Positions 5,504 through 32,000 of a stretch of DNA of 32,000 nt are shown in pieces. The DNA comes from Longivirga aurantiaca. Lineage in GTDB: Bacteria > Actinomycetota > Actinomycetes > S36-B12 > CAIYMF01. The translations under genes and the position numbers were made by a program. Positions within the stretch are counted from its first letter, which is position 1. Each line of letters opens with the position of its first letter. Location: the NCBI RefSeq assembly GCF_042660085.1, contig NZ_JBHSTI010000008.1, forward strand, positions 1,110,001 to 1,142,000, in the 5' to 3' direction. The notes beneath the pieces are model-generated. The model worked only from the letters and a program-made list of their open reading frames with translations. It was not told where the DNA came from and did not search any database.

Positions 5504-6823
5504 TCACAGGCCGCTGGGCTCGGTCTCGTACTCGGGCTCGGTCGGGCGAGGTTCGTGGCGCAGGGGCACCAGGGCCGTCGTGGTGTCGAACCAGAGCAGC
5601 GCGTCGTAGCGCCCACCCATCCACGTCGGGACGTAGTTGCCGCTCTCGCGCGACGGGTCGTACACCACACCCACCGCGCGGTGCCCCGCCCACGTCGACA
5701 GCCAGGGGCCGGACCGGTCCTCGGGGAAGACGAGCGACGCCCGCCGGGGCAGGCACTGGTGCAGCACCCACTCGTGGCTTCCGGCGCGGGCCACCGGCAA
5801 CGGCATGACGCGCTCGGGCTCGCCCCAGCCGCCCGCGGCCAGCACCGAGCCGCGGTGCGAGGCGAACCCCACCAGCACCACGCCGTCCGACTCGTGCCTC
5901 TCGCGCACGAGCTGGCCGACGGTGACGAGGCCGGCACGGGCCATGTCGGTCGCACGGGCGTCGCCGACATGCGTGTTGTGCTCCCAGACGACGCCGGCCG
6001 AGCCCGGGCCGAGATGGCGCGCGATGCGATCGATCGTGCCCGCCATGTGGTGGTCGCGGACGTTCCACGACGCGCGGTCGCCGCGCACCATCGCGCGGTA
6101 GTAGCTCTCGGCGTCGGCCGCGGCCTCCGCGTTGCAGGCTGCGTCGAACGCCAACTCGTCGTCGTCCGAGCGGACGCCGACCCTGCGCCGCACCTCGGTC
6201 AGCAGCGCGACCACCTCGTCCTCGCACGACTCCGGGATCAGCCGGGCGGCGCGTGCATAGCGGTGCGGGTCCTCGCCGTACGGCATGAAGCACCGCCACG
6301 CGTTCCACGCCGTGGGCAGGGCCTCGGGGTCGTGCTGCCCGAGCCATGCCATGGTGGCGCGCAGCGAGTCCCAGAGCGAGTAGACGTCGAGCCCGTAGAA
6401 GCCGACGCGCCGCTCGAGCGGGCGACCGCGGTTCGTCTCGCGCAACCACACGAGGAACTCACCGACGTCGTGGTTGGCCCACATCCAGGTCGGCCACCGG
6501 GAGAAGCGGCCGAGGAGCCCCCGGACGTCGAGATCCTGGTCGTCCTGCCCGCGCACCCAACGGTTGATCCGCCAGCAGTCCGGCCAGTCGCCCTCGACGC
6601 CGATCCACGTGACGCCTCGCTCCTCGACGAGGCGGCGCGTGAGCTGCGCCCGCCAGGCGTAGAACTCGTGGGTGCCATGCGACGCCTCGCCGATGCAGAC
6701 GTAGCGCGCGTCACCGATCCGGGCCAGGAGCGGGTCGAGGTCGGCGGGCGTCTCCAGCGGGTGGGCGAGCGACCTGGCCTCGGCCGCAGCCGACTCGTAG
6801 GACTCGCCGGTGAACGTGGTCAT
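5504..6823 (-). CDS. Erythromycin esterase-like (Ere/ChaN-type) family protein, 439 aa
   Basis: Inner ATG at 6823 of track ORF 5504..8317: [23 protein letters not shown]...YVCIGEASHGTHEFYAWRAQLTRRLVEERGVTWIGVEGDWPD...VVWEHNTHVGDARAT. These motifs are recalled as typical of the erythromycin esterase family. ATGA overlap with the upstream gene stop (6820-6823), and a GAGGAGGGA Shine-Dalgarno inside the upstream gene. Confidence 0.8.
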   Translation of the reverse strand: MTTFTGESYESAAAEARSLAHPLETPADLDPLLARIGDARYVCIGEASHGTHEFYAWRAQLTRRLVEERGVTWIGVEGDWPDCWRINRWVRGQDDQDLDVRGLLGRFSRWPTWMWANHDVGEFLVWLRETNRGRPLERRVGFYGLDVYSLWDSLRATMAWLGQHDPEALPTAWNAWRCFMPYGEDPHRYARAARLIPESCEDEVVALLTEVRRRVGVRSDDDELAFDAACNAEAAADAESYYRAMVRGDRASWNVRDHHMAGTIDRIARHLGPGSAGVVWEHNTHVGDARATDMARAGLVTVGQLVRERHESDGVVLVGFASHRGSVLAAGGWGEPERVMPLPVARAGSHEWVLHQCLPRRASLVFPEDRSGPWLSTWAGHRAVGVVYDPSRESGNYVPTWMGGRYDALLWFDTTTALVPLRHEPRPTEPEYETEPSGL

Positions 6824-8130
6824 GGCCGTCCCTCCTCGATCGGTTCGTGTCCCCTCCGTCCCAGGTGGCGCACGAACCAGTCGCGTGCGAACGAGGCAGC
6901 CTGGGCCAATGTCCCCGGCTCCTCGAACAGGTGCGTCGCCCCGGGCACCACGACCAGCTCGGTCGGGCACCGCAGCCGGGCCTGCGCAGCGCGGTTGAGC
7001 TCGAGCACGGCCCGGTCGTCGCCACCGACGATCAGCAATGTCGGTGCCCGCACCGCGGCGAGCGCGTGACCGGCCAGATCGGGCCGCCCTCCGCGGCTCA
7101 CGACCGCGGCCACCCGCTCGGATCCGGCGGCGGCGACGAGCGCCGCGGCAGCCCCTGTGCTCGCACCGAAGTATCCGAGGCTCAGACCGTCGACCGCGGG
7201 CTGCTGCACGAGCCAGTCCGTCGCGGCGATGAGCCGTGCGGCGAGCGTCCCGATGTCGAACACCCGGGCGCGGTCCTGCTCCTCCTCGGGGGTGAGGAGG
7301 TCGATGAGCAGCGTCCCGAGCCCGGCAGCCTGCAGGACGTCGGCGACGTACCGGTTGCGCGGGCTGTGCCGGCTGCTTCCGCTGCCGTGCGCGAACACGA
7401 CCAGGCCAGGTGCCCCGGGCGGGATCACCAGATGGCCCTCGAGCCGGCAGCCGGCGACGGGGACGAGCACCTTCTCGTCGTACGCCGCGCCCTCGGTGCC
7501 GGCCGCCCTCAGCAGGGCGACCACCTCCTCGTCGGAGGTCGGTGAGAAGTCCCGGTAGTGGTTGCCGACCGCCGTGAACCCCGGCGGCTCGGCCAGGCAG
7601 ACGACCTCGTCGGCGTCGGGCAGCCGGTGCTCGACGCCCGGTGCGCCGACGGGCGCGGCGACGATCACGCGGCGAGCACCGAGGTGGCGGGCCACCAGGC
7701 AGGCGGCCCGCGCGGTCGACCCGGTGGCGATGCCGTCGTCGATCAGCAGAGCGATGCGGCCCGTGAGATCCAGGCGGGGCCGGCCGGGGCGGAACCGGCG
7801 CACGCGGTCCTCGAGCTCCGCGCGCTCGCGCGCCTCGACCCGGACGACGTCCTCGGGCCTGACGCCGGCGAGGCGCAGGATCTCCTCGTCGATGACCCGG
7901 ACGCCGTCCTCTCCGAGAGCCCCCATGGCCAGCTCCGGCTGGTAGGGGACGCCGAGCTTGCGCACGACGATCACGTCGAGCGGCGCCCCGAGCTCCCGCG
8001 CCACCTGAGCGGCGACCGGCACACCACCACGAGGGAGCCCGAGCACGACGAGGTCGGGGCCGCGGAACCGGGCCAGCTGCTGGGCCAGAAGACGACCGGC
8101 CTCGATACGGTCGGCGAACGCCACCATCAC
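6820..8130 (-). CDS. Fusion protein: N-terminal phosphoribosyltransferase domain + C-terminal dienelactone-hydrolase-like alpha/beta hydrolase, 436 aa
   Basis: ORF track. N-terminal half: [14 protein letters not shown]...[18 protein letters not shown] (PRPP-binding loop). C-terminal half: [17 protein letters not shown]...[14 protein letters not shown] (G-x-S-x-G nucleophile elbow)...LLIVGGDD...[10 protein letters not shown]. Confidence 0.85.
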
Positions 8131-10830: not shown

Positions 10831-10996
10831 CCGCGACCTCGACCGCGCACCTCACGGGTTCCCGCCGTCGCATCGGGGTCGCCCAGCCTGCTGGCGGCGG
10901 ACGCCCGGACCGACGCGTGGGGCACCCCGGGCAAATGCCCGATGCGGCCCCGAGCCGGCGTCCCTAGCGTCGCGGCGAGGTCGGGGAGGCTCAACG

Positions 10997-13900
10997 ATGA
11001 TGGGACGAACAGTGCGGGGCAGTCGGGCACGGGGTCGTACGGCTGGATCACCTCTTCGTCGCGGCGTGGTGGGCGCCTGCGTCCTCGCCCTCACCGCGTC
11101 GTTGCTGTCGATGACAGGGGCAGGCAGCGCGGTGGGTGCCTCCCTTCCCGCGGCCGTGGTCGCACCTCAGGCCGTGGACGCCGCTGCTGCCGTCCCGGCC
11201 AACGTGACCGTCGGGCGAGGGCACGCCTGCGCCCTCATGGCGACCGGATACGTGTGGTGCTGGGGGCGCAACGACCGCGGCCAGCTCGGCTACCCGAGCG
11301 CGACGACCCCCGGCGAGCCGCGCCCGGTGCCCGGCATCTCCACGGCGGTGCAGGTGGTCGCCGGCGATCTGCACACCTGCGCCCGGCTCACCGATGGCAC
11401 GGTGAAGTGCTGGGGGGCCAACGGTTCGGGTCAGCTCGGCAACGCCTTGACCGTCGACAGCTCGGCGCCGGTCGCAGCGATTGGGCTCTCGGGGGTCACC
11501 GATCTCACGGCTGGACGGGCGCACACGTGTGCCGTCGCGAACGGCCTCGTCTCGTGCTGGGGATCGAACGGGTTCGGCCAGCTCGGGCTCGGCAGTGTGC
11601 GCGAAGCGCGCCTCGGCCTGACCCAGTTGGCGCAGTTCTATGCGATCGGCGTCGGTTCGAACGCCACGGACGACAACGGGGACCTCGTGCTCTCCGACGC
11701 AGCGACCAACGGCACGCTCGGCAGCGGATCGGTCGTCCGGTACGGCGACGACGGCGTGATCAAGTCGTTCTGGAGCATCCCCGGAAGCACTCTCGTAGGT
11801 GGCGTCGCAACCGCCCGCGACGGGTCGCGCACCTACGTCGCCAGCGCGTTCCCGGGTCAGGCCGTGGTCTGGGTGCTGTCCGGTACGACGACGATCGAAC
11901 GCACGTGGAGCCTGGTGAGCAGCGTCCCGGGCTGCGTGACTGCGAGCTGCAGCGTCGTCGGCCTGACCACCGACGCCAACGGCACGGTCTACGCCGCGGT
12001 TCAGCGGTTCGATGGGGCCGGCGTCTCTCGAGCCTCGTTCATCGCGTCGGCGTCGAAGGAGGGACTCCCGCTCGGCGTGACCGATGTGACCGCTCAGATG
12101 ACCGTCATCTCCGACGTCACCTGGGTCCCGGGGGCGAACCGGGGGACGGTGTGGGTGCTCGGTACCAACCTGGTCAACCCGTCGCCCTTCAACCCGTCAC
12201 CCACCCTGTCGTCCTTCGCCATCCCGGCCACCGCCGGCTCGTCCCTGGTCTTCCTCAACAAGAAGTCGGCGTACGCCGCGGTGGAGAGCTGCGTGCCCTC
12301 GGAGGATTACGTGCTGGCGGATCAGACGACGCTCAGCGGCACTGCCTTCTACCGCCACCGACACACGTACCCGCTCGTCAACAGCCTCCGCCTCGGAACC
12401 GCAGCGGACGGCCAGCTGCTGCTCTCGGCCGACTACTCCCAGGGCCGGCGTCTGGAGAACACCTTCACGACCAACCCTGCGGCCCCGGTGGACATCCAGA
12501 CCAACTACACCAACGAGACGCCTGCCGAGGTCGCAGACTGCGTGATGGTCGTGGACCCCGCGGCCTCGTCAACGCAGGCAGCCAGCGTGGTCTTCACGGT
12601 CCGGGGCAGCGCGGGCGATCTCACGGATCTCCGGAAGCCGTTGGACGCAACGGAGTCCGGTGATGGCGGCATCATCGTCTCCGACCCCTCGTACGCCGCT
12701 GCCAGCCCCGCGAGGCTCCAGCGCTTCAACGCGGTGGGCTCGGTCACTCAGTGGGGCCGGGTGCCGATCCGCACGATCCCGACGCCGCTGATGCCGTTGC
12801 AGGCCCTGCAGCCCGGGCAGGCTGCACCGACCATGAGCAGCGTGTTCGCGGGTGCGCATCACACGTGCGCTTCCGGCGTCGTGAACGGCCAGCCGACCAC
12901 GCTGTGCTGGGGCAGCAGCTCCTCCGGCCAGACGGGATGGCCCGCCTCGGGCGCGTCGGCCCTGCGCTTCGGCCTCCCTCCGTCGGACACCGGCGACCAG
13001 AGCAGCTTCCCGATCGCCATGCCCGTGATCGGCGCCGGAGTGGGCAGCGGCGGTCTGGCGCACACGTGCATCGCCCAGAACGGGTCGCCTCGTCAGATGA
13101 CCTGCTGGGGCGCCAACGACAGCGGCCAGACGCGGCTCAACACGGTCGAGGGCGACATCTGGCGGAACGGCGGCACTCCCACGACCGTGCCGGTGACCGA
13201 GCTGGACTCAGGCGACCTCACCACGTGCACGATCGAGTCCACCGACCTGAAGCGCGTGCAGTGCTACGGATCGGACGCTTACGGGCAGACCTCGGTGCGT
13301 CCGGGCGCGTGCCTGAACAACCTGGACTTCGTGCAGACGGCCGGCTGCCAGCAGGTCGGTGGAGCGATGCACATCTCCGCCGGGCCTACCACGACGTGCG
13401 CTGCGACCGCCACCGGCATCGTCTGCTGGGGCGACAACGCGTGGGGGACTCTGGCGACGTATGGCTCGCCTCTGGGCGCCGTCGGCGTCCCGCTCGAGGT
13501 GCCGAGCACGTTCATCGTGAGCGCCCCCGCGACGCTCGATGGAAGCCTCGTGGCGCGGTTCGGCACCAACCTGGACGCGCTCGACGCCACGACCGACGTG
13601 GTGCTCCGCGTCAAGGGATCGGCGAGTGCCCTGGCAAGCACGAAGAGTGTGTCGGCCGACCGTCGGACAGTGAGCATCAAGCCGGCAGCGCCACTCGTCG
13701 CCGGGCAGCAGTACGAAGTCGCAGTCAACACCGGCAGCGCCACAGCGCTCACCTCCGGCGGCCTGCCGCTGACCCCGTCCGTGGTGAGTGCCAGAGCCGC
13801 GACGGCGCTGGGTGACACCAGCCCGGCCAATACGGCGGCCTGGCCAAAGGTCAGCAGCAGCACAGCCCTGGGGGGCTCGTACGTGACGGAGCGGACGGCA

Positions 13901-14515
13901 GGAGCATCCGCGAAGTTCGCGTTCACGGGCAGCTCCGTCGCCCTGCTGACGCGCAAGGGGCCGAGCCAGGGCAAGGTCGTGGTCTCGGTCGGCGCGGTAT
14001 CCAAGACGTTGGACCTGTACTCCGCCACTGCCGTCAACCGGTTCAAGGTCGCCCTCACCGGTCTCGGCGCCGGCCCCCACACGCTGACGGTCAAGGTGCT
14101 GGGCACCCGCAACACCAGGTCGACGGGCACCTCGGTGGCGATCGACGGGTTCTCGGTGGGAGCGGTCACCTCGGCCACGCCGACCTTGACTCCTTCCTGG
14201 GCAGCTGTGTCCTCCTCGACCGCTTCGGCGAAGCGATACGTCCGCTCCCAGCAGGCAGGCGCCACGTACACGGTCACGTTCCGCGGCACACGCATCAACT
14301 GGCTGACGTTCGTAGGCCCCGACTTCGGTGACGCCAAGGTCGTGATCGACGGGAAGGCGAAGGGGACGTTCGCGCTCTACGCGACGGCCACGAAGGCCCG
14401 CACGGTCGCCTTCACGGGGCTGACCGACGCGGTGCACAAGCTGACCGTCACCGTCGCGGGCACGGGCACGGGCACCAAGGACTTCGTCGCAGTCGACGGT
14501 TGGACCGTCTCATGA
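10997..14515 (+). CDS. Giant secreted RCC1-repeat protein (1172 aa): signal peptide, 3 RCC1 blades, ~410-aa NHL-like insert, ~4 RCC1 blades, Ig-like domain, two tandem ~110-aa C-terminal beta-sandwich-like domains
   Basis: GGGGAGG Shine-Dalgarno 7 nt before the ATG at 10997. The N-terminus has an RR-containing basic region plus a hydrophobic core (SPLRRGVVGACVLALTASLL). RCC1 signatures occur about 7 times: GYVWCWGRNDRGQLG, GTVKCWGANGSGQLG, LVSCWGSNGFGQLG (nt 11201-11596), then TTLCWGSSSSGQTG, QMTCWGANDSGQT, VQCYGSDAYGQT, IVCWGDNAWGTL (nt 12830-13462). The C-terminal tandem domains at 13829-14188 and 14189-14512 align by eye (W..VSSST......YV......GA...F.F.G........GP..G...V..........DLY...). 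Confidence 0.9.
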   Translation: MMGRTVRGSRARGRTAGSPLRRGVVGACVLALTASLLSMTGAGSAVGASLPAAVVAPQAVDAAAAVPANVTVGRGHACALMATGYVWCWGRNDRGQLGYPSATTPGEPRPVPGISTAVQVVAGDLHTCARLTDGTVKCWGANGSGQLGNALTVDSSAPVAAIGLSGVTDLTAGRAHTCAVANGLVSCWGSNGFGQLGLGSVREARLGLTQLAQFYAIGVGSNATDDNGDLVLSDAATNGTLGSGSVVRYGDDGVIKSFWSIPGSTLVGGVATARDGSRTYVASAFPGQAVVWVLSGTTTIERTWSLVSSVPGCVTASCSVVGLTTDANGTVYAAVQRFDGAGVSRASFIASASKEGLPLGVTDVTAQMTVISDVTWVPGANRGTVWVLGTNLVNPSPFNPSPTLSSFAIPATAGSSLVFLNKKSAYAAVESCVPSEDYVLADQTTLSGTAFYRHRHTYPLVNSLRLGTAADGQLLLSADYSQGRRLENTFTTNPAAPVDIQTNYTNETPAEVADCVMVVDPAASSTQAASVVFTVRGSAGDLTDLRKPLDATESGDGGIIVSDPSYAAASPARLQRFNAVGSVTQWGRVPIRTIPTPLMPLQALQPGQAAPTMSSVFAGAHHTCASGVVNGQPTTLCWGSSSSGQTGWPASGASALRFGLPPSDTGDQSSFPIAMPVIGAGVGSGGLAHTCIAQNGSPRQMTCWGANDSGQTRLNTVEGDIWRNGGTPTTVPVTELDSGDLTTCTIESTDLKRVQCYGSDAYGQTSVRPGACLNNLDFVQTAGCQQVGGAMHISAGPTTTCAATATGIVCWGDNAWGTLATYGSPLGAVGVPLEVPSTFIVSAPATLDGSLVARFGTNLDALDATTDVVLRVKGSASALASTKSVSADRRTVSIKPAAPLVAGQQYEVAVNTGSATALTSGGLPLTPSVVSARAATALGDTSPANTAAWPKVSSSTALGGSYVTERTAGASAKFAFTGSSVALLTRKGPSQGKVVVSVGAVSKTLDLYSATAVNRFKVALTGLGAGPHTLTVKVLGTRNTRSTGTSVAIDGFSVGAVTSATPTLTPSWAAVSSSTASAKRYVRSQQAGATYTVTFRGTRINWLTFVGPDFGDAKVVIDGKAKGTFALYATATKARTVAFTGLTDAVHKLTVTVAGTGTGTKDFVAVDGWTVS

Positions 14516-17500
14516 GCACCGCAACCCGTGTCCGCCTCACCTCGAAGGGCTCCATGCCGATGTCTCGCTTCACCGCCCTCCTCTGCGTGGGTGTGATGCT
14601 GTCCCTCGGGCTGGGTGCGGCGTCCTCCTACTCCTCTGGCGCCGAGGCGGCGACCGCAACGGCGACCGCGGCGGTTGTCCCAGCGGCGGCACCGGCGCCG
14701 GGCAGCGAGTGCCTCGATGACGTGACCGGCGAGTCCGAGCCGTGCGACTTCGGGATGGAGCCGGTGCGCTTCCCGTCCGGTCGCACGATCGGCGAGTACG
14801 AGAGCGCGGTGCTGACCCGCAGCGCGGCCAACCGCGCCTCGACCGTGTCGATGAACGACTTCACCACCGGGGTCCTGCTCGGCTCCTGCGTCCCTGACGT
14901 CGCATCGTGCGGCCTGGACAACCGCGTCCGAGTCGGCGACGACGGCCCGTTGTACACGGACGCGACCCCGGTCCTCCCGTCGTCGGCGTCGACCACCGTC
15001 GGTGACACCGCCGTGGCGAAGGCCGACTTCAATGGCGACGGCCGCGAGGACGTCGTCACTGCGGCGCTGTGCCCCGTGCTGGGAGGCGGCACGCCGAGCG
15101 AGATCTGCCTTCGGGCGTACGACCCTGACACGGACTCGTGGTCGTCGTGGAGCCCGACGGGTCTGGTGGCGGACTCGGTGAAGGCCGTGGGACGCATCAA
15201 GCTCGCTGCCGGACGGATCGCGCAGACGACGGCGAAGGTGACGGGAGCGTCCTTCACCACGTCGGCTGACGGCTCGAACCTCCTCATGCGCCTCACGACG
15301 GACATCCCCCACCGCCTCACCACGAGCGATGCGCTGCGGTTCGACGCGGCCGGCGTGGCCGAGCTTGCTTCCGCGCTGTGCCTTCCGGCCGATGACGACG
15401 GCACCGAGCCGTTGTGCGCGGGAGATCTCGCCGAGGGGCTGTGGCCGATCGAGTCGATCGCGACCGATCGCCTCTCCTTCGTCGTGGCACTGGGGACGCT
15501 TCAGGACGCGAGCGCCACGGCGACCTGCCCTCCGGAGGGCTTCCGCTGCCTCGCGGACGGCACCCGTGAGCCCTTGGACTGGAGCAGCGACACCGGGTTC
15601 GGCGTCACGGGGACCAACCAGGGCCTCGCCGTGGCCTGGGTCGCGCCTTCGGCCTCGGTGCAGCTCGCGACGTTCATCGTCCGACTGGGCACGACGGCGC
15701 CGTTCTCTCTCAGCGACGTCCACTCCGTCGGTGTGAGCACAGGTGCCCGACAGCCGCTCGACGTCGTGACGGGGGACTTCAACGGGGGAGCCCCCGACGA
15801 GATCGCAGTCGGCTTCGGCAGCACCTGCACCGGCCTTGCCTGCCTGCGCGTGCGCATCTTCCGCTGGAACGACTCCAAGCAGCTGGTCCCTGTCGGAGCG
15901 GCCAACGCACCCGCGGATGCTCCGAAGATGTCCGGAAACGCGAATCTGACCGTGTCGTCCGTCTCCCTCGCGTCCGGGCGGCTCACCAAGGCTGCCGGGA
16001 CCAACCTCGACGGCGACGACCTGCTCGTCGCCGTCCAGAGCACCAGCGGAACGATCGGGTGCCCGGTGCTGCAGGCGTGCATGGCCAGGTACGCCATCAC
16101 GTACGACGTCGCAGGGGACTTCGTCCCGAAGGCAGCTGCAACCACGCTGATCGAGACGGGCAGCGAGGGTCTGGTCGCTTCCCGGTACTCGTTCGTGGCC
16201 GCCGCCGCCGACTTCGACGGTGACGGCATGGACGACCCGGTCATCGGGAGGACCACGACCCAGCTCCTCGGCACTACCGAGAGCCGGGCCGCCTTCACGG
16301 TGATCACGACCCTGTCGTCGACAGGCACCCGCCTGACGTTCAACGGGGACGACGACATGCGCGCTGTCGGTGTCGGCGGCTCAGGACAGCTGGCGCTCGC
16401 AGCCGGGCAGGTCGGGTCTCTCGAGGACGCGAGCAGCCAAGGCTTCCCGAACGCGATCAACCCCGACATCGTCCTCGCGTGGACCTGCGTAGACACGGCC
16501 TCGTGCGGAGCTTCGGCGAGCGGCTCCAGCGTCGCCATCCTGCCGATCGCCGTGAAGATCCAGGCGACGCCTGAGTTCTTCCCCAAGGGCAAGGACAAGC
16601 TCAGCCCGAGCGACGACGGCGGCATCCCGAGCGTCCTGCCCGCGGCGCCGCTCCCTGCGACGTACAACGCGATCACGAGCGAGGCGACGCACGTGGCGCT
16701 CGCCCTGCCCGACCTGGATGCGGACAGCCAGACGCTGGGGACGCCTGTCACCTACGTGACCGTCGGCGAGGTCCGGCCCCTCATGATCCTGCGCTCGCCG
16801 CCCGTCCACTTCGACGCGTTCCCGGCGCTCATCACGAACGACGGCAAGGTCTCCTTCACCGAGACCCGAGACACCAACGGGTGCTTCGGCGCGAAGACTC
16901 CGTCCGACTGCGACGTCGCCACCGTGTACTCGTCGACGTCGACGCTCACCAGCTCGATCGCAGGAAGCATCAACAACTCGTGGGGCATCGGGGGATCGGT
17001 CGGCTTCAACACATGGTTCGGCGATACCAAGGAGACGAAGGCCGGCGTCACGAAGTGCCAGACCGGTGTCTGCGCCGAGCTGACCGTCCTGCTGGAGACC
17101 GAGTACAACGGGGAGCAGGCCGACACCACCAAGGCCGGCACCAACTTCACGTACTCGTTCAGCAAGACCGCTCTCGCCGGCTCCGACGAGGTTCTCGCCT
17201 TCACCGCAGCGACCGAGACGACCGAGTACCCGATCTACCCCGGCACGTCCGTCTTCGGTGGCGAGCTCGAGCCGGGGCGGTACGTCCGCGTCGACAGCCC
17301 CGTCCAGTCGACGCTGGCATGGCGCAGCGCGACCGACCCGGAGATCACCTCGAGCGGCTGGCAGCACTCGGTGCCGGGCAACATCCTCTCCTACCCCAAG
17401 TCCGCGAACACGCTCCCGACCGACACGAAGGCGGTCAAGGAGGCGGAGAAGATCGGCCCGCAGACCGTGCGGATCACCACGACCGGCGATCACGGATACA

Positions 17501-29430: not shown

Positions 29431-29508
29431 GGTGCGAGCCCCTGCTCGGCAGGATTCCGCGCGCACGGAGGGGAAGGATGAGGACATGACCAGGTCGCCC
29501 TTTCAACC

Positions 29509-32000
29509 GTGATCCCGCCGGCTGGTACCTCGACCCGACGGGACGAGCACGACTGCGCTACTGGGATGGTCACCTGCTGACCGCCTGGGTGTCCGACGGC
29601 GAGACGACCCGGCTCGACCCCGAGCCCCTCGCCCCGCGCCAGATCCGCACCGACGACCACGAGCACATCGTGTTCGTGCGCGAGGTCTTCCTCCCGCTGG
29701 CGAGGGCGCGTGGACGTGTCGGACGCGAAGTCCTCGACGAGCTGGGCGAGTACGCCTGGTACCTCGAGAGCGCCGTCGGCCGTGCCGACGCCGTGAGCCC
29801 GGCGAGAGCGGCTGCCGCCCAGGTGCGGGTCGGAGCCACGACCGTGAGGAGCGGCACGTCGTACACCGTCGCTCCCGCCGTCGCGCCGCCCGGCACCATG
29901 CCCGCACCGCGCACCACCGCACCGCCGACACGCACCGCTGCCCCGGTGGCCCGTGAGGTGCCGGCCCCGGCACCTGCGCAGGAGGAGCGCGGCCCGAGCC
30001 GCAGCAGCCTCAGGTGGGCGCGCTTCACCGACTCGGTCGGCTCCGATCTCGCCACGCACGGCCTCGCCTACCTCGGCGTGCTGCTGCTGTTCATCGGCGT
30101 GTTCGGCCTCGTGGCGTTCGCGTTCGGCGACGTCGCGCCCACGATGCGACCGGTCGCCGAGATCGGCATCGCGCTGGCACCGTTCGTGGCCGCCTGGATG
30201 CTGCTGCGTCGCGGGGCCGACATCGCCGGCCGTGCTCTCGAGACCGCGGGCGGCCTGCTGCTGCCCGTCATGCTCGTGACGTCGTTCCTCGACGGCGTGC
30301 CCGTCCCTCCCGACCTGGTCGGAGTCCCGCTCGCCATCACGCTCACCCTGGTGACCGCAGCGGTCAGCGGCGCCTATGCGCTGTGGAGCCTGCGTCATCG
30401 CACCTCCGCGCTGCGCTACCTCGTCGCACCCGTCGCCTGGTTGTCGGTTGGCCTCGCCGTGATGGGCGTGGGGCGCGAGATCCCGAGCGGCAGCGGTGTC
30501 GCGGTCGTGACCGCGGCGCAGGTGGCGGCGATCTCGGTCGCCATGGCTGCCTCGCTGCTGTGGGCCCGGCTCGCACCCGCAGCGGTGCTGTCGGCGCCCA
30601 CGCTCACGAGCGGTGCCGTCGGCAGCTGCGTCGTGGCGCTGCTCGCGCTCATGACGTGGATCTCGGGCGGATGGCCGCCGGTCGCGATCGCCGTCACCGG
30701 TGTCGCCGGCCTCGCGGTGCTCGAGCTGCTCGACGGCCGGGTGCCGCACGCCGTCGTCCGCATCGCCCAGCCGCTCTGGTGGGCGCTCGCGGCGACCGCT
30801 CTGCTGCCCGCGCTCGGCCCGACCGCCACCGGTCTCGCGACCGCCGCGGCGCTCGGCTGCGCCGGGTTCCTCGTGCTCGTCGAGCTCTCCGGACGCGACC
30901 GCGCCAGCCTGCCGTTCCTGCTCGCCGGCCTCGGCCTGGGCGGCACGTTCCTCGTGACGCTCAACGAGCCGTGGTTCGCGTGCGCCGCTGCCGCGGTGCT
31001 GGCGGTGTGGTCCGGCGTACGGCGCCTGCACGGGTTCGCCGTGCCGTGGTCCCGCCCTGCCCTCGACGTGGTCGCCGGTCTCATGCCGGTCGTCGCGGTG
31101 ACGGCGCTGGGATTCGCGACGCGGCACGCGCCTCTCGCCCTGATGGTCGGCAGCGTGCTCGTGCTGCTCGCGGTCGTGCCGATCGACGTCACCGCCGTGC
31201 GCGTGCGGCTGCGCCGTGATCCGGCCGACCACTTCTGGATGCTGTGGTGGGACGCCGGCATGGTCGCTGCCGTCGTCGCGACGGTCGTGATGGTCACGGG
31301 CTTCTGGCCCGCCGACCCCTCGGCGCAGTGGATTCTTGGCGCCGTTCCCGCGGTGCTCGCGCTGTCGGCCGCGGTCGGTCCGCTGCGCGCCACCTGGCGC
31401 CCCTGGCCGACCCTCGCGCTGCTCACCTGGTCGTGGCTCATCACCGCGACGACCGCCGGCTGGCCGCTCGCCTGGACGCTGGGTGCTCCGGCCGTCGTCG
31501 CCCTCGTGATCGTCGCGCTCGTGCACGCGCTGCCGCGCGCGGTCGCGCACTGGTCGTCGCCAGGCCAGCTCGGCACCGCCGCGCTCGTGCTCCTGGTGGT
31601 GTGCATCGCGCTGGCCGGCACGCCCAACGGCTGGCTCCCGGCGCTGCTCGTGTCGGCGCTCGCCGCCGGTCTGGTGCTGGTGACGGCGTACGACGAGGTC
31701 GGGCGCTCGCCCGTGGCCGACGTGTTCGTCGACCTCATGGGCCCCGACGTCCGCTACGCCGGTGCCGCGTTCGCCGCGCTGTCCGTGCCGCTGTCGGCCA
31801 TGCTCCTGCTCGATGCGTCCGGCGCCCTGCCGTTCGAGTCGTGGTGGGCGGGCATCACGCTCAGCGTGACCGCGCTGGTGTACGCCGCGGCCACGCGCCT
31901 GCCGACGTCCGCGCATCTCGGCCGCGTGCTCACGTGGACCGCGATCGCGGGCTCCCTGGCCGGTGTCGCGGTGGCGTGGTCGACCACGTTCCTCGCCTCG
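29509..32000 (+). CDS. DUF2510-like N-terminal domain fused to a very large polytopic membrane protein (at least 830 aa; runs off the window end)
   Basis: Own translation (absent from the track because there is no stop in the window). From the GTG at 29509: VIPPAGWYLDPTGRARLRYWDGHLLTAWVSDGE (the W-Y-x-D-P ... R-Y-W-D-G ... W pattern recalled for DUF2510). A ~150-aa soluble/Pro-Ala region follows. From ~30050 come continuous hydrophobic segments (LAYLGVLLLFIGVFGLVAFAF, IGIALAPFVAAWMLL, GGLLLPVMLVTSFL ...), at least 20 by eye. Very high GC3. The opposite-strand 867-aa ORF is Arg-rich shadow. Confidence 0.8.

What the first reader, a model, noticed from the sequence alone, without database searches (positions are those of the whole stretch)
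10997..19227. ATGA-coupled pair of giant secreted multi-propeller proteins: candidate undescribed extracellular system
Two consecutive + strand genes occupy 8.2 kb, encoding 1172 aa and 1571 aa. The second start codon overlaps the first stop (ATGA at 14512-14515), which suggests co-translation and a stoichiometric partnership. Both have N-terminal export signals; the first contains an RR pair and may use Tat. Neither has a recognisable cell-wall or membrane anchor. Both are built from eukaryote-like beta-propeller repeats, RCC1 in the first and integrin-alpha-type FG-GAP/VCBS calcium-binding motifs in the second. Both also carry Ig/CARDB-like and carbohydrate-binding-like beta-sandwich modules. 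About 700 aa of the second protein (roughly residues 690-1285) matches no family I can name. I recognise no enzymatic motif. The pair could be a surface-recognition or toxin-delivery complex, an adhesin pair, or a receptor for an environmental polymer.
Basis: partly seen in the sequence, partly recalled or inferred. Interest (0 to 1): 0.8.

Follow-up and report, generated by a model that had tools for sequence, protein, structure and literature searches.

The report
Conserved secreted propeller-protein gene pair
Two very large secreted proteins of the actinobacterium Longivirga aurantiaca are encoded by back-to-back genes that stay together in related bacteria; the second belongs to a widespread protein family that nobody has described, and what either protein does is still unknown.

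Summary
Genes A (10997-14515, 1172 aa) and B (14512-19227, 1571 aa) are real, share an ATGA stop/start overlap, and each has one N-terminal signal peptide and no anchor.

A is a seven-blade RCC1 propeller split by an unannotated ~400-aa insert. It is followed by an Ig-like module and two CE2_N-like (carbohydrate-binding-type) modules.

B has an FG-GAP propeller, an unannotated ~525-aa beta core, a CARDB-like domain and a further Ig-like domain.

The pair is co-conserved down to ~30% identity in every context I could inspect. In the seven lineages with DNA, a possible B start lies within -4 to +11 nt of A's stop. A LuxR/AAA regulator is often adjacent.

B is not an orphan. Its core plus CARDB defines a family with 394 cluster representatives, mostly ~1060-aa proteins with type IX secretion tails. 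Only 1 of 80 of their loci has an RCC1 gene nearby, so the partnership is specific to the actinobacterial branch.

The core has no significant Pfam, PDB or viral-structure match. The weak signals all point to aerolysin-type pore-forming toxins (Cry23Aa1, E=0.024).

Tat export is not supported. Function is unproven: most likely an extracellular recognition pair, with a binary pore-former as the most interesting alternative. Interest is moderate.

The parts
10983..10989 (+). Shine-Dalgarno sequence GGGGAGG, 7 nt upstream of gene A's ATG
   Evidence: Read directly from the sequence.
10997..14515 (+). Gene A: secreted 1172-aa protein with an RCC1 propeller, an Ig-like module and carbohydrate-binding-type modules
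   Evidence: ORF with GC3 of 0.87. Pfam finds RCC1, Big_5 and CE2_N. Orthologues range from 77-99% identity down to ~30%.
10997..11140 (+). Signal peptide of A (aa 1-48; basic N-region with RR, hydrophobic core, probable cleavage after AVGA)
   Evidence: This is the only hydrophobic segment in A. The RR context does not fit the Tat consensus and is not conserved in Nocardioides taihuensis.
11159..11611 (+). RCC1 blades 1-3 of A (CWGxNxxGQL motifs at aa 88, 138, 187)
   Evidence: Pfam WD40_RLD, RCC1 and RCC1_2 cover aa 55-202. PDB matches are UVR8, HERC2 and BLIP-II. Motifs were counted.
11612..12811 (+). Unannotated ~400-aa insert of A between RCC1 blades 3 and 4
   Evidence: No Pfam or PDB match at permissive thresholds. 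The BLASTP alignment to the N. taihuensis orthologue runs through this region.
12812..13486 (+). RCC1 blades 4-7 of A (motifs at aa 637, 703, 756 found by pattern search; a fourth, CWGDNAWGTL at about aa 809, read from the sequence)
   Evidence: Second Pfam WD40_RLD/RCC1 stretch. Three motifs were counted; the fourth was read from the translation. With blades 1-3 this makes seven.
13535..13744 (+). Ig-like Big_5 module of A (aa 847-916)
   Evidence: Pfam Big_5 scores 25.0 bits against a cut-off of 23.6 when the C-terminus is scanned alone.
13826..14512 (+). Two tandem CE2_N-like beta-sandwich (carbohydrate-binding-type) modules of A
   Evidence: Pfam CE2_N scores 29.1 bits against a cut-off of 27.9, in two stretches. 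The same module lies directly upstream of B in L005 and in the JGI contigs.
14512..14515 (+). ATGA: A's stop codon overlaps B's candidate start codon
   Evidence: Possible B starts lie -4, -1, +1, +5, +11 and -4 nt from A's stop in L002, L001, L005, L087, L088 and L089.
14544..14562 (+). Alternative B start: GAAGGG Shine-Dalgarno-like motif with ATG at 14554 and 14560
   Evidence: Read from the sequence. GAAGGG is conserved in L002, with an ATG 10 nt downstream.
14512..19227 (+). Gene B: secreted 1571-aa protein with FG-GAP propeller, beta core, CARDB-like and Ig-like domains (WP_386765935.1, annotated 'hypothetical protein')
14512..14649 (+). Signal peptide of B (Sec type; hydrophobic core FTALLCVGVMLSLGLGAA; probable cleavage after AEA)
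   Evidence: This is the only strongly hydrophobic segment in B and there is no lipobox.
14689..16710 (+). FG-GAP (integrin-alpha-type) calcium-binding propeller region of B, with a small inserted domain at about aa 240-340
   Evidence: FG-GAP_3 scores 26.3 bits and FG-GAP 17.4 bits, both below cut-off. DxNxDG-type motifs sit at aa 172 and 567. Relatives pass FG-GAP. The family profile hits the integrin alpha-V propeller at E~7e-9. hhalign aligns B from aa 414 onward with the wider family. The small inserted domain was noted by reading the sequence only.
16711..18288 (+). Unannotated conserved beta core of B (aa 734-1259)
   Evidence: The family profile finds 394 cluster representatives. hhalign against the wider family gives E=2.9e-60. 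AlphaFold2 models have pLDDT 69-75. No significant Pfam, PDB or BFVD match.
16951..17142 (+). Long amphipathic Gly/Ser/Thr-rich beta-hairpin 1 of the core (aa 814-877), modelled with low confidence
   Evidence: pLDDT below 50 in the model. Hydrophobic and polar positions alternate strictly across the family, and the tip varies in length. Cry23Aa1 aligns over this region at E=0.024.
17434..17865 (+). Insert of ~115-145 aa in the core, specific to the actinobacterial branch
   Evidence: Absent from all wider-family members in the alignment. Modelled as a small beta domain.
17872..18003 (+). Long Gly/Ala-rich amphipathic beta-hairpin 2 of the core (aa 1121-1164), modelled with low confidence
18292..18648 (+). 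CARDB-like beta-sandwich of B (aa 1261-1379)
   Evidence: Relatives pass Pfam CARDB. hhalign aligns this region. Block pLDDT is mostly 84-94 in the model. The profile hits the PDB CARDB-like entry 2kut at 5.5e-13.
18796..19224 (+). C-terminal Ig-like beta-sandwich of B (aa 1429-1570), which takes the place of the type IX secretion tail found in the wider family
   Evidence: Block pLDDT is mostly 85-96 in the model. This region lies beyond the end of the hhalign match, which stops at B aa 1381.
19234..19273 (.). Perfect 14-bp GC-rich hairpin 7 nt after B's stop, between convergent genes: the probable end of the operon
   Evidence: Folding energy -37.4 kcal/mol, z=-4.47, matched by 0 of 200 shuffles. 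Sequence.
19322..21838 (-). Convergent large LuxR-family regulator (AAA ATPase plus GerE domains), a candidate regulator of the pair
   Evidence: Pfam finds GerE, AAA_22 and AAA_16. Its C-terminus is conserved downstream of the pair in L002-L004. An AAA_16-TPR-GerE gene lies directly upstream of the pair in L088. GerE and AAA_16 genes are on the P0004 contig.

Best explanation
A and B form a two-gene operon whose products are exported by the Sec pathway and act together outside the cell as a non-enzymatic recognition or adhesion module.

**Shown**
- The two genes abut.
- They are co-conserved.
- The pair ends at a strong hairpin.
- A LuxR/AAA regulator often lies next to it.

**B.** B belongs to a widespread family of secreted proteins. 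Its layout recalls an integrin alpha subunit:
- a calcium-binding FG-GAP propeller 'head';
- a conserved beta-rich core carrying two long flexible hairpins;
- Ig-like 'leg' domains.

**A.** A is an accessory subunit found only with the actinobacterial branch of that family. It contributes:
- a protein-binding RCC1 propeller (the kind used by the secreted Streptomyces inhibitor BLIP-II);
- an Ig-like spacer;
- two carbohydrate-binding-type modules.

**Inferred**
- The two proteins assemble in roughly equal amounts.
- A's carbohydrate-binding-type modules and B's propeller bind a glycan-bearing surface or polymer.
- The parts of B found only in the actinobacterial branch (the small inserted domains and the C-terminal Ig-like domain) are where A docks.
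For: **Linkage**
- The pair is adjacent in every context inspected:
  - the Longivirga clade (L002-L004);
  - N. taihuensis (L001);
  - two JGI contigs;
  - MAG or metagenome contigs L005, L087, L088 and L089.
- B identity falls to 32% and A identity to ~28-31% across these.
- Possible B starts lie -4 to +11 nt from A's stop in seven lineages.
- A terminator-like hairpin follows B.

**Export**
- Each protein has one signal peptide, no anchor and many cysteines: 21 in A and 35 in B.

**Domains**
- RCC1, Big_5 and CE2_N in A.
- FG-GAP and CARDB in B.

**Specificity of the partnership**
- B's family is large.
- The RCC1 partner is absent from 79 of 80 wider-family loci.
- The core insert and the C-terminal Ig-like domain are likewise confined to the partnered branch.

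**Against an enzyme role**
- No polysaccharide-utilisation or enzyme genes recur next to the wider family.
- No catalytic family was detected.
Against: - No direct evidence exists for an A-B contact, for any ligand, or for secretion itself.
- B's core keeps a set of polar residues nearly invariant (His, several Asp, Glu, Asn, Ser). These could form a catalytic or metal site rather than a passive scaffold.
- The weak structural and profile signals point to pore-forming toxins rather than adhesins.
- The integrin-like similarity of the 'leg' is generic Ig-chain similarity (TM ~0.1).
- B's true start codon is unproven, so the overlap may instead be a 44-nt gap.
Confidence: 0.45

Rival explanations
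1. Binary beta-pore-forming toxin. B's core would be a distant, enlarged relative or analogue of aerolysin-type toxins. After the propeller and A's carbohydrate-binding-type modules bind a target cell, B would oligomerise, and its two amphipathic hairpins would form a membrane-spanning beta-barrel. A would play the accessory role that Cry37Aa1 plays for Cry23Aa1.
For: - The core-only profile has a single PDB hit at E<=10, and it is Cry23Aa1 (E=0.024), aligned over hairpin 1. The same chain is the only hit within the core region when the full profile is used.
- The Foldseek hit list for the core is dominated by Cry51Aa, Cry23Aa, aerolysin, parasporin-2, the LSL lectin, epsilon toxin and the lysenin pore. 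Secretins and CDTb pores also appear.
- The model shows a compact body with two very long, low-confidence, Gly/Ser/Thr-rich, strictly alternating hairpins whose length varies across the family.
- One family member weakly hits the CEL-III pore-forming domain.
Against: - Nothing is significant. Foldseek E-values are all above 1e-3, probabilities are at most 0.33 and TM-scores at most 0.2.
- The HMMER hit carries compositional bias from Ser/Thr-rich strands.
- No Pfam aerolysin, ETX_MTX2 or MACPF match appears in any of 17 members.
- The strongly conserved body motifs are unusual for this toxin class.
- Alternating strands are also typical of ordinary beta-sandwiches.
- The extended hairpins have pLDDT below 50 and may be a modelling artefact.
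Confidence: 0.2
2. Extracellular polymer-acting enzyme plus targeting partner. B's conserved core, or its propeller (as in PL11 rhamnogalacturonan lyases), would be a new catalytic domain. A would bring the complex to a polysaccharide through its CE2_N-like modules.
For: - The core has nearly invariant His, Asp, Glu, Asn and Ser residues.
- The family propeller profile matches PL11 lyases YesW and YesX and a 'secreted esterase'.
- CE2_N modules occur in carbohydrate esterases.
Against: - No catalytic family was detected in Pfam, NCBIfam or PDB.
- The propeller matches rest on the generic FG-GAP calcium-binding motif.
- Neighbours of 80 wider-family loci are signalling genes (histidine kinases, Ser/Thr kinases, ECF sigma factors), not SusC/D or glycoside hydrolase genes.
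- The 'HE' of the wider family's HEVGN motif is lost in the actinobacterial branch.
Confidence: 0.15
3. Two independent secreted proteins that are only co-regulated. Adjacency and the stop/start overlap would reflect shared expression, for example under the neighbouring LuxR/AAA regulator, without any physical complex.
For: - ATGA overlaps are the commonest overlap in bacterial operons and do not by themselves imply a complex (established knowledge).
- The wider B family functions without any RCC1 partner.
- No interface could be tested.
Against: - Adjacency persists at ~30% identity in eight or more contexts whose flanking genes otherwise differ.
- The A-type architecture was found only next to B-type genes: the four full-length A homologues are all close relatives, and all A orthologues located in contigs sit beside B.
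- Additions to B that are specific to this branch coincide with the presence of A.
Confidence: 0.15

Closest known systems
Uncharacterised ~1060-aa 'T9SS type A sorting domain-containing proteins' (for example MFZ0453252.1 from Ignavibacteriaceae; Bacteroidota-type metagenome proteins)
   Same: These are true homologues of B. hhalign gives E=2.9e-60 over 717 columns, covering the second half of the FG-GAP propeller, the whole beta core and CARDB. Motifs such as PPxHFD, EYPVY, GNxLSY and PDxAFxLP are shared.
   Different: - They end in a type IX secretion sorting domain. B ends instead in an extra Ig-like domain.
- They lack B's core insert.
- 79 of 80 of their loci have no RCC1 gene nearby.
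- None has a known function.
Integrin alpha subunits and other FG-GAP/VCBS propeller proteins (CRTAC1, PL11 lyases YesW and YesX)
   Same: A calcium-binding FG-GAP beta-propeller is followed by beta-sandwich domains. The family profile hits the integrin alpha-V propeller at E~7e-9, and YesW and CRTAC1 at ~1e-7.
   Different: - B's own FG-GAP scores are below Pfam's cut-offs.
- The core has no counterpart in integrin thigh or calf domains (TM ~0.1).
- B has no transmembrane segment and no beta-subunit gene nearby.
Aerolysin-type beta-pore-forming toxins, in particular the Cry23Aa1/Cry37Aa1 binary toxin (PDB 4rhz)
   Same: Secreted, with elongated Ser/Thr-rich beta-sheets and amphipathic hairpins, and organised as two components. 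This group gives the best, though weak, profile and Foldseek neighbours.
   Different: - No significant match: E=0.024, Foldseek probability at most 0.33, TM at most 0.2.
- B's core is about twice as large, has two hairpins and has strongly conserved body motifs.
- The partner A is unrelated to Cry37.
BLIP-II, the secreted RCC1-like seven-blade propeller of Streptomyces that inhibits beta-lactamase (PDB 1jtd, 3qhy)
   Same: A secreted actinobacterial RCC1-type propeller that works by binding another protein. It matches A's blades at E~1e-7.
   Different: - BLIP-II is a bare ~280-aa propeller.
- A is 1172 aa.
- A has a ~400-aa insert between blades 3 and 4.
- A also carries Ig-like and CE2_N-like modules.

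Membership tests
RCC1-repeat beta-propeller (Pfam PF00415/PF13540) | Repeats score above Pfam's gathering cut-offs | tested here: met
   RCC1_2 scores 94.8 bits against 22, and RCC1 scores 65.9 against 21.7. PDB matches to UVR8 and HERC2 reach E~1e-26.
RCC1-repeat beta-propeller (Pfam PF00415/PF13540) | Seven blades closing into one propeller | tested here: inconclusive
   Six CWGxxxxGQ-type motifs were found by pattern search, 3 before and 3 after the insert. A seventh, CWGDNAWGTL at about aa 809, was read from the translation.
FG-GAP / integrin-alpha-type propeller | FG-GAP repeats score above Pfam's cut-offs | tested here: not met
   For B itself, FG-GAP_3 scores 26.3 against 26.9 and FG-GAP scores 17.4 against 22.1. 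Homologous relatives do pass, at 40.9-54.7 bits. The region from B aa 414 aligns to their propeller.
FG-GAP / integrin-alpha-type propeller | Calcium-binding DxDxDG-type loops | tested here: met
   DFNGDGRED at aa 172 and DFDGDGMDD at aa 567. Degenerate copies are visible in the alignment.
Aerolysin / ETX-MTX2 beta-pore-forming toxins | Significant sequence or profile similarity to a family member | tested here: not met
   The best match is Cry23Aa1 at E=0.024, with compositional bias. No Pfam aerolysin or ETX_MTX2 hit in any of 17 members.
Aerolysin / ETX-MTX2 beta-pore-forming toxins | Aerolysin fold (significant structural superposition) | tested here: not met
Aerolysin / ETX-MTX2 beta-pore-forming toxins | Amphipathic insertion hairpin flanked by Ser/Thr-rich strands | tested here: inconclusive
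   Two such hairpins are present and their pattern is conserved. The same pattern fits an ordinary sandwich strand, and pLDDT is below 50.
Aerolysin / ETX-MTX2 beta-pore-forming toxins | Oligomerisation into a membrane pore | not testable with these tools
   This needs biochemistry or prediction of homo-oligomers.
CARDB-like Ig domain (B) | Pfam CARDB match or equivalent fold | tested here: inconclusive
   B itself has no direct Pfam hit. Relatives pass at 26.8-34.8 bits. The region aligns by hhalign. It is modelled as a confident beta-sandwich.
CE2_N carbohydrate-binding-type module (A) | Pfam gathering cut-off | tested here: met
   29.1 bits against 27.9 in two stretches when aa 828-1172 are scanned alone. 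The score is 24.4 bits, below cut-off, in the full-length scan. Binding of any sugar was not tested.
Tat (twin-arginine) export substrates | S/T-R-R-x-F-L-K motif before the hydrophobic core, conserved in orthologues | tested here: not met
   A has PLRRGVV, in which only the RR fits. The N. taihuensis orthologue has no RR pair.
Sortase-anchored or membrane-anchored surface proteins | C-terminal LPXTG plus a hydrophobic tail, or a lipobox | tested here: not met
   Neither protein has LPXTG, a C-terminal hydrophobic segment or a lipobox.
Type IX secretion cargo | C-terminal Por_Secre_tail sorting domain | tested here: not met
   The domain is present in the wider-family relatives and absent from B. 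B ends in an Ig-like domain instead.
Translationally coupled operon pair | Stop and start codons overlap or abut, conserved across orthologues | tested here: met
   Possible starts lie at -4, -4, -1, +1, +5, +11 and -4 nt in seven lineages. Which start codon is actually used was not verified experimentally.

The most novel reading that the evidence does not exclude
B's core plus CARDB unit defines a previously unrecognised class of beta-barrel pore-forming (or otherwise membrane-active) module. It is secreted through the type IX system in Ignavibacteria and Bacteroidota-type bacteria. In Actinomycetota it is paired with a dedicated RCC1 and carbohydrate-binding targeting subunit. That would make it a new family of binary toxins in environmental bacteria.
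Probability: 0.15. Interest if true: 0.8.

Novelty: new variant of a known kind. Interest (0 to 1): 0.42.

Why it matters
If the pair really works as a complex, it would be a new way of building an extracellular recognition or attack device from two propeller proteins.

Independently of that, the ~400-aa core of B marks a sizeable family with no annotation, no significant structural match and no studied member. The family has 394 cluster representatives at 50% identity, and most are cargo of the type IX secretion system. Naming and characterising it would annotate hundreds of large secreted proteins from sediment and soil bacteria.

The actinobacterial pair offers a tractable entry point. Two cultured hosts are available, Longivirga aurantiaca and Nocardioides taihuensis, and there is a candidate regulator.

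Tried and rejected
- **Genome scan with the B family alignment.** It gave no information on distribution.
- **Third homologue search with the core alignment.** It returned nothing at E<=1e-5, probably because of the word prefilter, so the search was wasted.
- **Foldseek with the 892-aa model.** It matched only generic chains of Ig-like domains (mastigoneme, alpha-2-macroglobulin, transglutaminase barrels, integrin legs) at TM ~0.1. This is not informative about the core.
- **BFVD search.** Nothing significant.
- **Pfam on 17 core sequences at E<=10.** Only compositional hits appeared, such as Fil_haemagg_2.
- **Tat export.** Rejected.
- **Polysaccharide-utilisation context for the wider family.** Not found.
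- **A's middle insert.** No Pfam or PDB hit.
- **Sortase link.** A sortase gene lies near the pair in N. taihuensis, but neither protein has LPXTG, so this was rejected.
Full report
**Source and setting**

The window comes from Longivirga aurantiaca, a 72% GC actinobacterium. Protein B is identical to WP_386765935.1, which is annotated 'hypothetical protein'.

Codon-position GC content identifies the real genes.
- Upstream of the pair are unrelated metabolic and stress genes. These are 2-oxoacid dehydrogenase subunits, an acyl-CoA ligase, two Usp proteins and a divergent unknown gene.
- Downstream, on the opposite strand, is a large LuxR-family regulator with an AAA ATPase domain.

**Check of the observation**

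Both ORFs exist exactly as described, and ATGA sits at 14512-14515. Gene A has a strong Shine-Dalgarno sequence. A 14-bp perfect GC-rich hairpin lies 7 nt after B's stop (-37.4 kcal/mol, z=-4.5) and closes the unit. Each protein has a single hydrophobic segment, at its N-terminus, and has no LPXTG, lipobox or C-terminal anchor.

B's start codon is not settled.
- ATG 14560 follows a GAAGGG motif that is conserved in the 86%-identical orthologue.
- In favour of 14512, the frame from that position is kept without indels, one synonymous change is visible, and NCBI and other gene callers choose it.

The Tat suggestion fails. Only the RR pair fits the motif, and the Nocardioides orthologue has no RR pair once its start is corrected.

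**Anatomy of A**

- RCC1 repeats score far above cut-off. They match UVR8, HERC2, RCC1 and the secreted Streptomyces inhibitor BLIP-II.
- Blade motifs fall into two groups: three at aa 88-187 and four at aa 637-809. The first six come from a pattern search. The last was read from the translation.
- A therefore looks like one seven-blade propeller interrupted by a ~400-aa insert. The insert matches nothing in Pfam or PDB.
- The C-terminus has a Big_5 Ig-like module and two CE2_N-like beta-sandwiches. Both families pass their cut-offs when this region is scanned alone.

**Anatomy of B**

B itself gives only sub-threshold FG-GAP hits and no PDB sequence match. Only seven full-length homologues turned up among 5.8 billion clusters.

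A profile of residues 680-1571 was then searched without a word filter. It found 394 cluster representatives, 263 of them at E<=1e-10.
- About a dozen are B-like actinobacterial proteins.
- The rest are mostly ~1060-aa proteins with four parts:
  - a clear FG-GAP propeller;
  - an unannotated middle region;
  - CARDB;
  - a type IX secretion sorting domain.
- One example is an Ignavibacteriaceae protein named only by its sorting domain.
- Profile-profile comparison confirms homology over 717 columns, at E=2.9e-60.

Compared with these relatives, B differs in several ways:
- it has a less similar N-terminal ~400 aa;
- it has an insert of ~115-145 aa in the core;
- it ends in an extra Ig-like domain instead of the secretion tail.

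**The core domain**

Two AlphaFold2 models were made.

| Model | Residues of B | Mean pLDDT | pTM |
|---|---|---|---|
| C-terminal segment | 680-1571 | 74.6 | 0.75 |
| Core alone | 734-1259 | 69.3 | 0.67 |

Both show a confident beta-rich body. From it project two very long hairpins, 35-42 residues per strand, whose middle parts have pLDDT below 50. The hairpins are rich in Gly, Ser and Thr. Hydrophobic and polar positions alternate strictly across the family, and the tips vary in length. The body carries the conserved motifs, including nearly invariant His, Asp, Glu, Asn and Ser residues.

Similarity searches gave the following.
- Foldseek found no significant PDB or BFVD match for the core.
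- The sub-threshold PDB list is nonetheless dominated by aerolysin-family pore-forming toxins and by proteins that build giant beta-barrels.
- A core-only sequence profile has exactly one PDB hit at E<=10: Cry23Aa1, at E=0.024, aligned over hairpin 1.
- No member hits a toxin family in Pfam.

I read this as a lead, not a membership.

**Co-conservation**

Every B-type gene whose context I could see has an A-type gene immediately upstream.

| Context | What is upstream of B |
|---|---|
| L002-L004 | A-type gene |
| N. taihuensis (L001) | A at 31% identity over its full length |
| Two JGI contigs | RCC1 and/or CE2_N gene |
| L005 | CE2_N-bearing fragment, 36% identical to A's C-terminus |
| L087, L088, L089 | A-type gene at 28-31% identity |

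When the most upstream plausible start is used, B begins -4, -4, -1, +1, +5, +11 and -4 nt from A's stop in seven lineages. In three of these lineages, that start also restores a proper signal peptide that the gene caller had cut off.

Flanking genes differ between contexts, with one exception: LuxR/AAA regulators recur. They are found in the window, in L002-L004, in L088 and on the P0004 contig.

By contrast, among 80 metagenomic loci of the wider family, only one has any RCC1 gene within reach. Their recurrent neighbours are signalling genes, not carbohydrate-utilisation genes. The partnership is therefore an innovation of the actinobacterial branch.

**Interpretation**

The shown facts are these:
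- a real, exported, tightly linked and co-conserved pair;
- known binding-type modules in both proteins;
- a widespread core family that has not been described.

The rest is inference. I favour a non-enzymatic extracellular recognition or adhesion pair, in which A is an accessory targeting subunit (0.45). The rivals are:
- a binary pore-former (0.2);
- a new enzyme with a carbohydrate-binding partner (0.15);
- two merely co-regulated proteins (0.15).

No literature in the held library links these domains in such a system.

**Verdict**

It is less exotic than claimed, however. The propellers are common bacterial modules, Tat is unsupported, and B belongs to a large family. The novelty lies in the undescribed core domain family and in the conserved A-B pairing. 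Interest is moderate.

Noticed in passing
window 19322-21838 (-); L088 1866-4631; L002 14800-14916: A large LuxR-family regulator (AAA ATPase plus GerE) lies next to the A-B pair in several lineages, in differing orientations. It may control the pair.
   Followed up: partly
window 19234-19273: A perfect 14-bp GC-rich inverted repeat (-37.4 kcal/mol, z=-4.5) without a T-run lies between the convergent B and regulator genes. It is probably a bidirectional terminator of the kind common in high-GC actinobacteria.
   Followed up: yes
window about 15230-15530 and 17434-17865 (B aa ~240-340 and ~975-1118): By eye, B seems to contain two copies of a small beta domain with a '...TT..(D)H(G/R)...' sequence signature, and P0134 seems to carry a further copy after its CARDB domain. 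This was not tested. In the BFVD search, a few phage baseplate-wedge proteins matched the core model locally (about 125 columns, rmsd 3.9-5.4 A, probability 0.95-0.97, E>0.3, not significant), but which part of the model they aligned to is not known.
   Followed up: partly
L001 9938-10001; L005 642-659; L087 7134-8001: Gene callers placed B's start too far downstream in three orthologues and cut off the signal peptide. In L087 the true product is about 290 aa longer than annotated.
   Followed up: yes
L002 1152-6174; L088 18550-20437: In other genomes the pair sits next to defence-type or mobile-element genes. L002 has Fic, an ADP-ribosylglycohydrolase and a NERD-helicase. L088 has a resolvase and a phage integrase. 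This hints that the cassette may move between genomic contexts.
   Followed up: no
L005 6843-9704; P0004 contig 12043-16728: Extra family genes accompany the pair in some lineages. L005 has a second RCC1 protein (953 aa) directly after B. The JGI contig has a convergent 1561-aa protein with no Pfam hit right after B, which may be a B paralogue.
   Followed up: no
metagenome loci L007-L086: Wider-family genes recurrently neighbour hybrid histidine kinases (17 loci), Ser/Thr kinases with TPR repeats (6 loci) and PF07638-type ECF sigma factors (6 loci). No structural partner is conserved.
   Followed up: partly
window 29490-32000 (+): The strong T-over-A skew at the window's end (AT skew about -0.4) comes from a partial gene for a DUF2510 protein with many membrane-spanning segments. 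This is ordinary.
   Followed up: yes
window 6820-8130 (-) and 22425-23852 (-): Two unusual fusions: a phosphoribosyltransferase domain fused to a dienelactone-hydrolase-type alpha/beta hydrolase, and an EamA transporter fused to a cyclic-nucleotide-binding domain.
   Followed up: no
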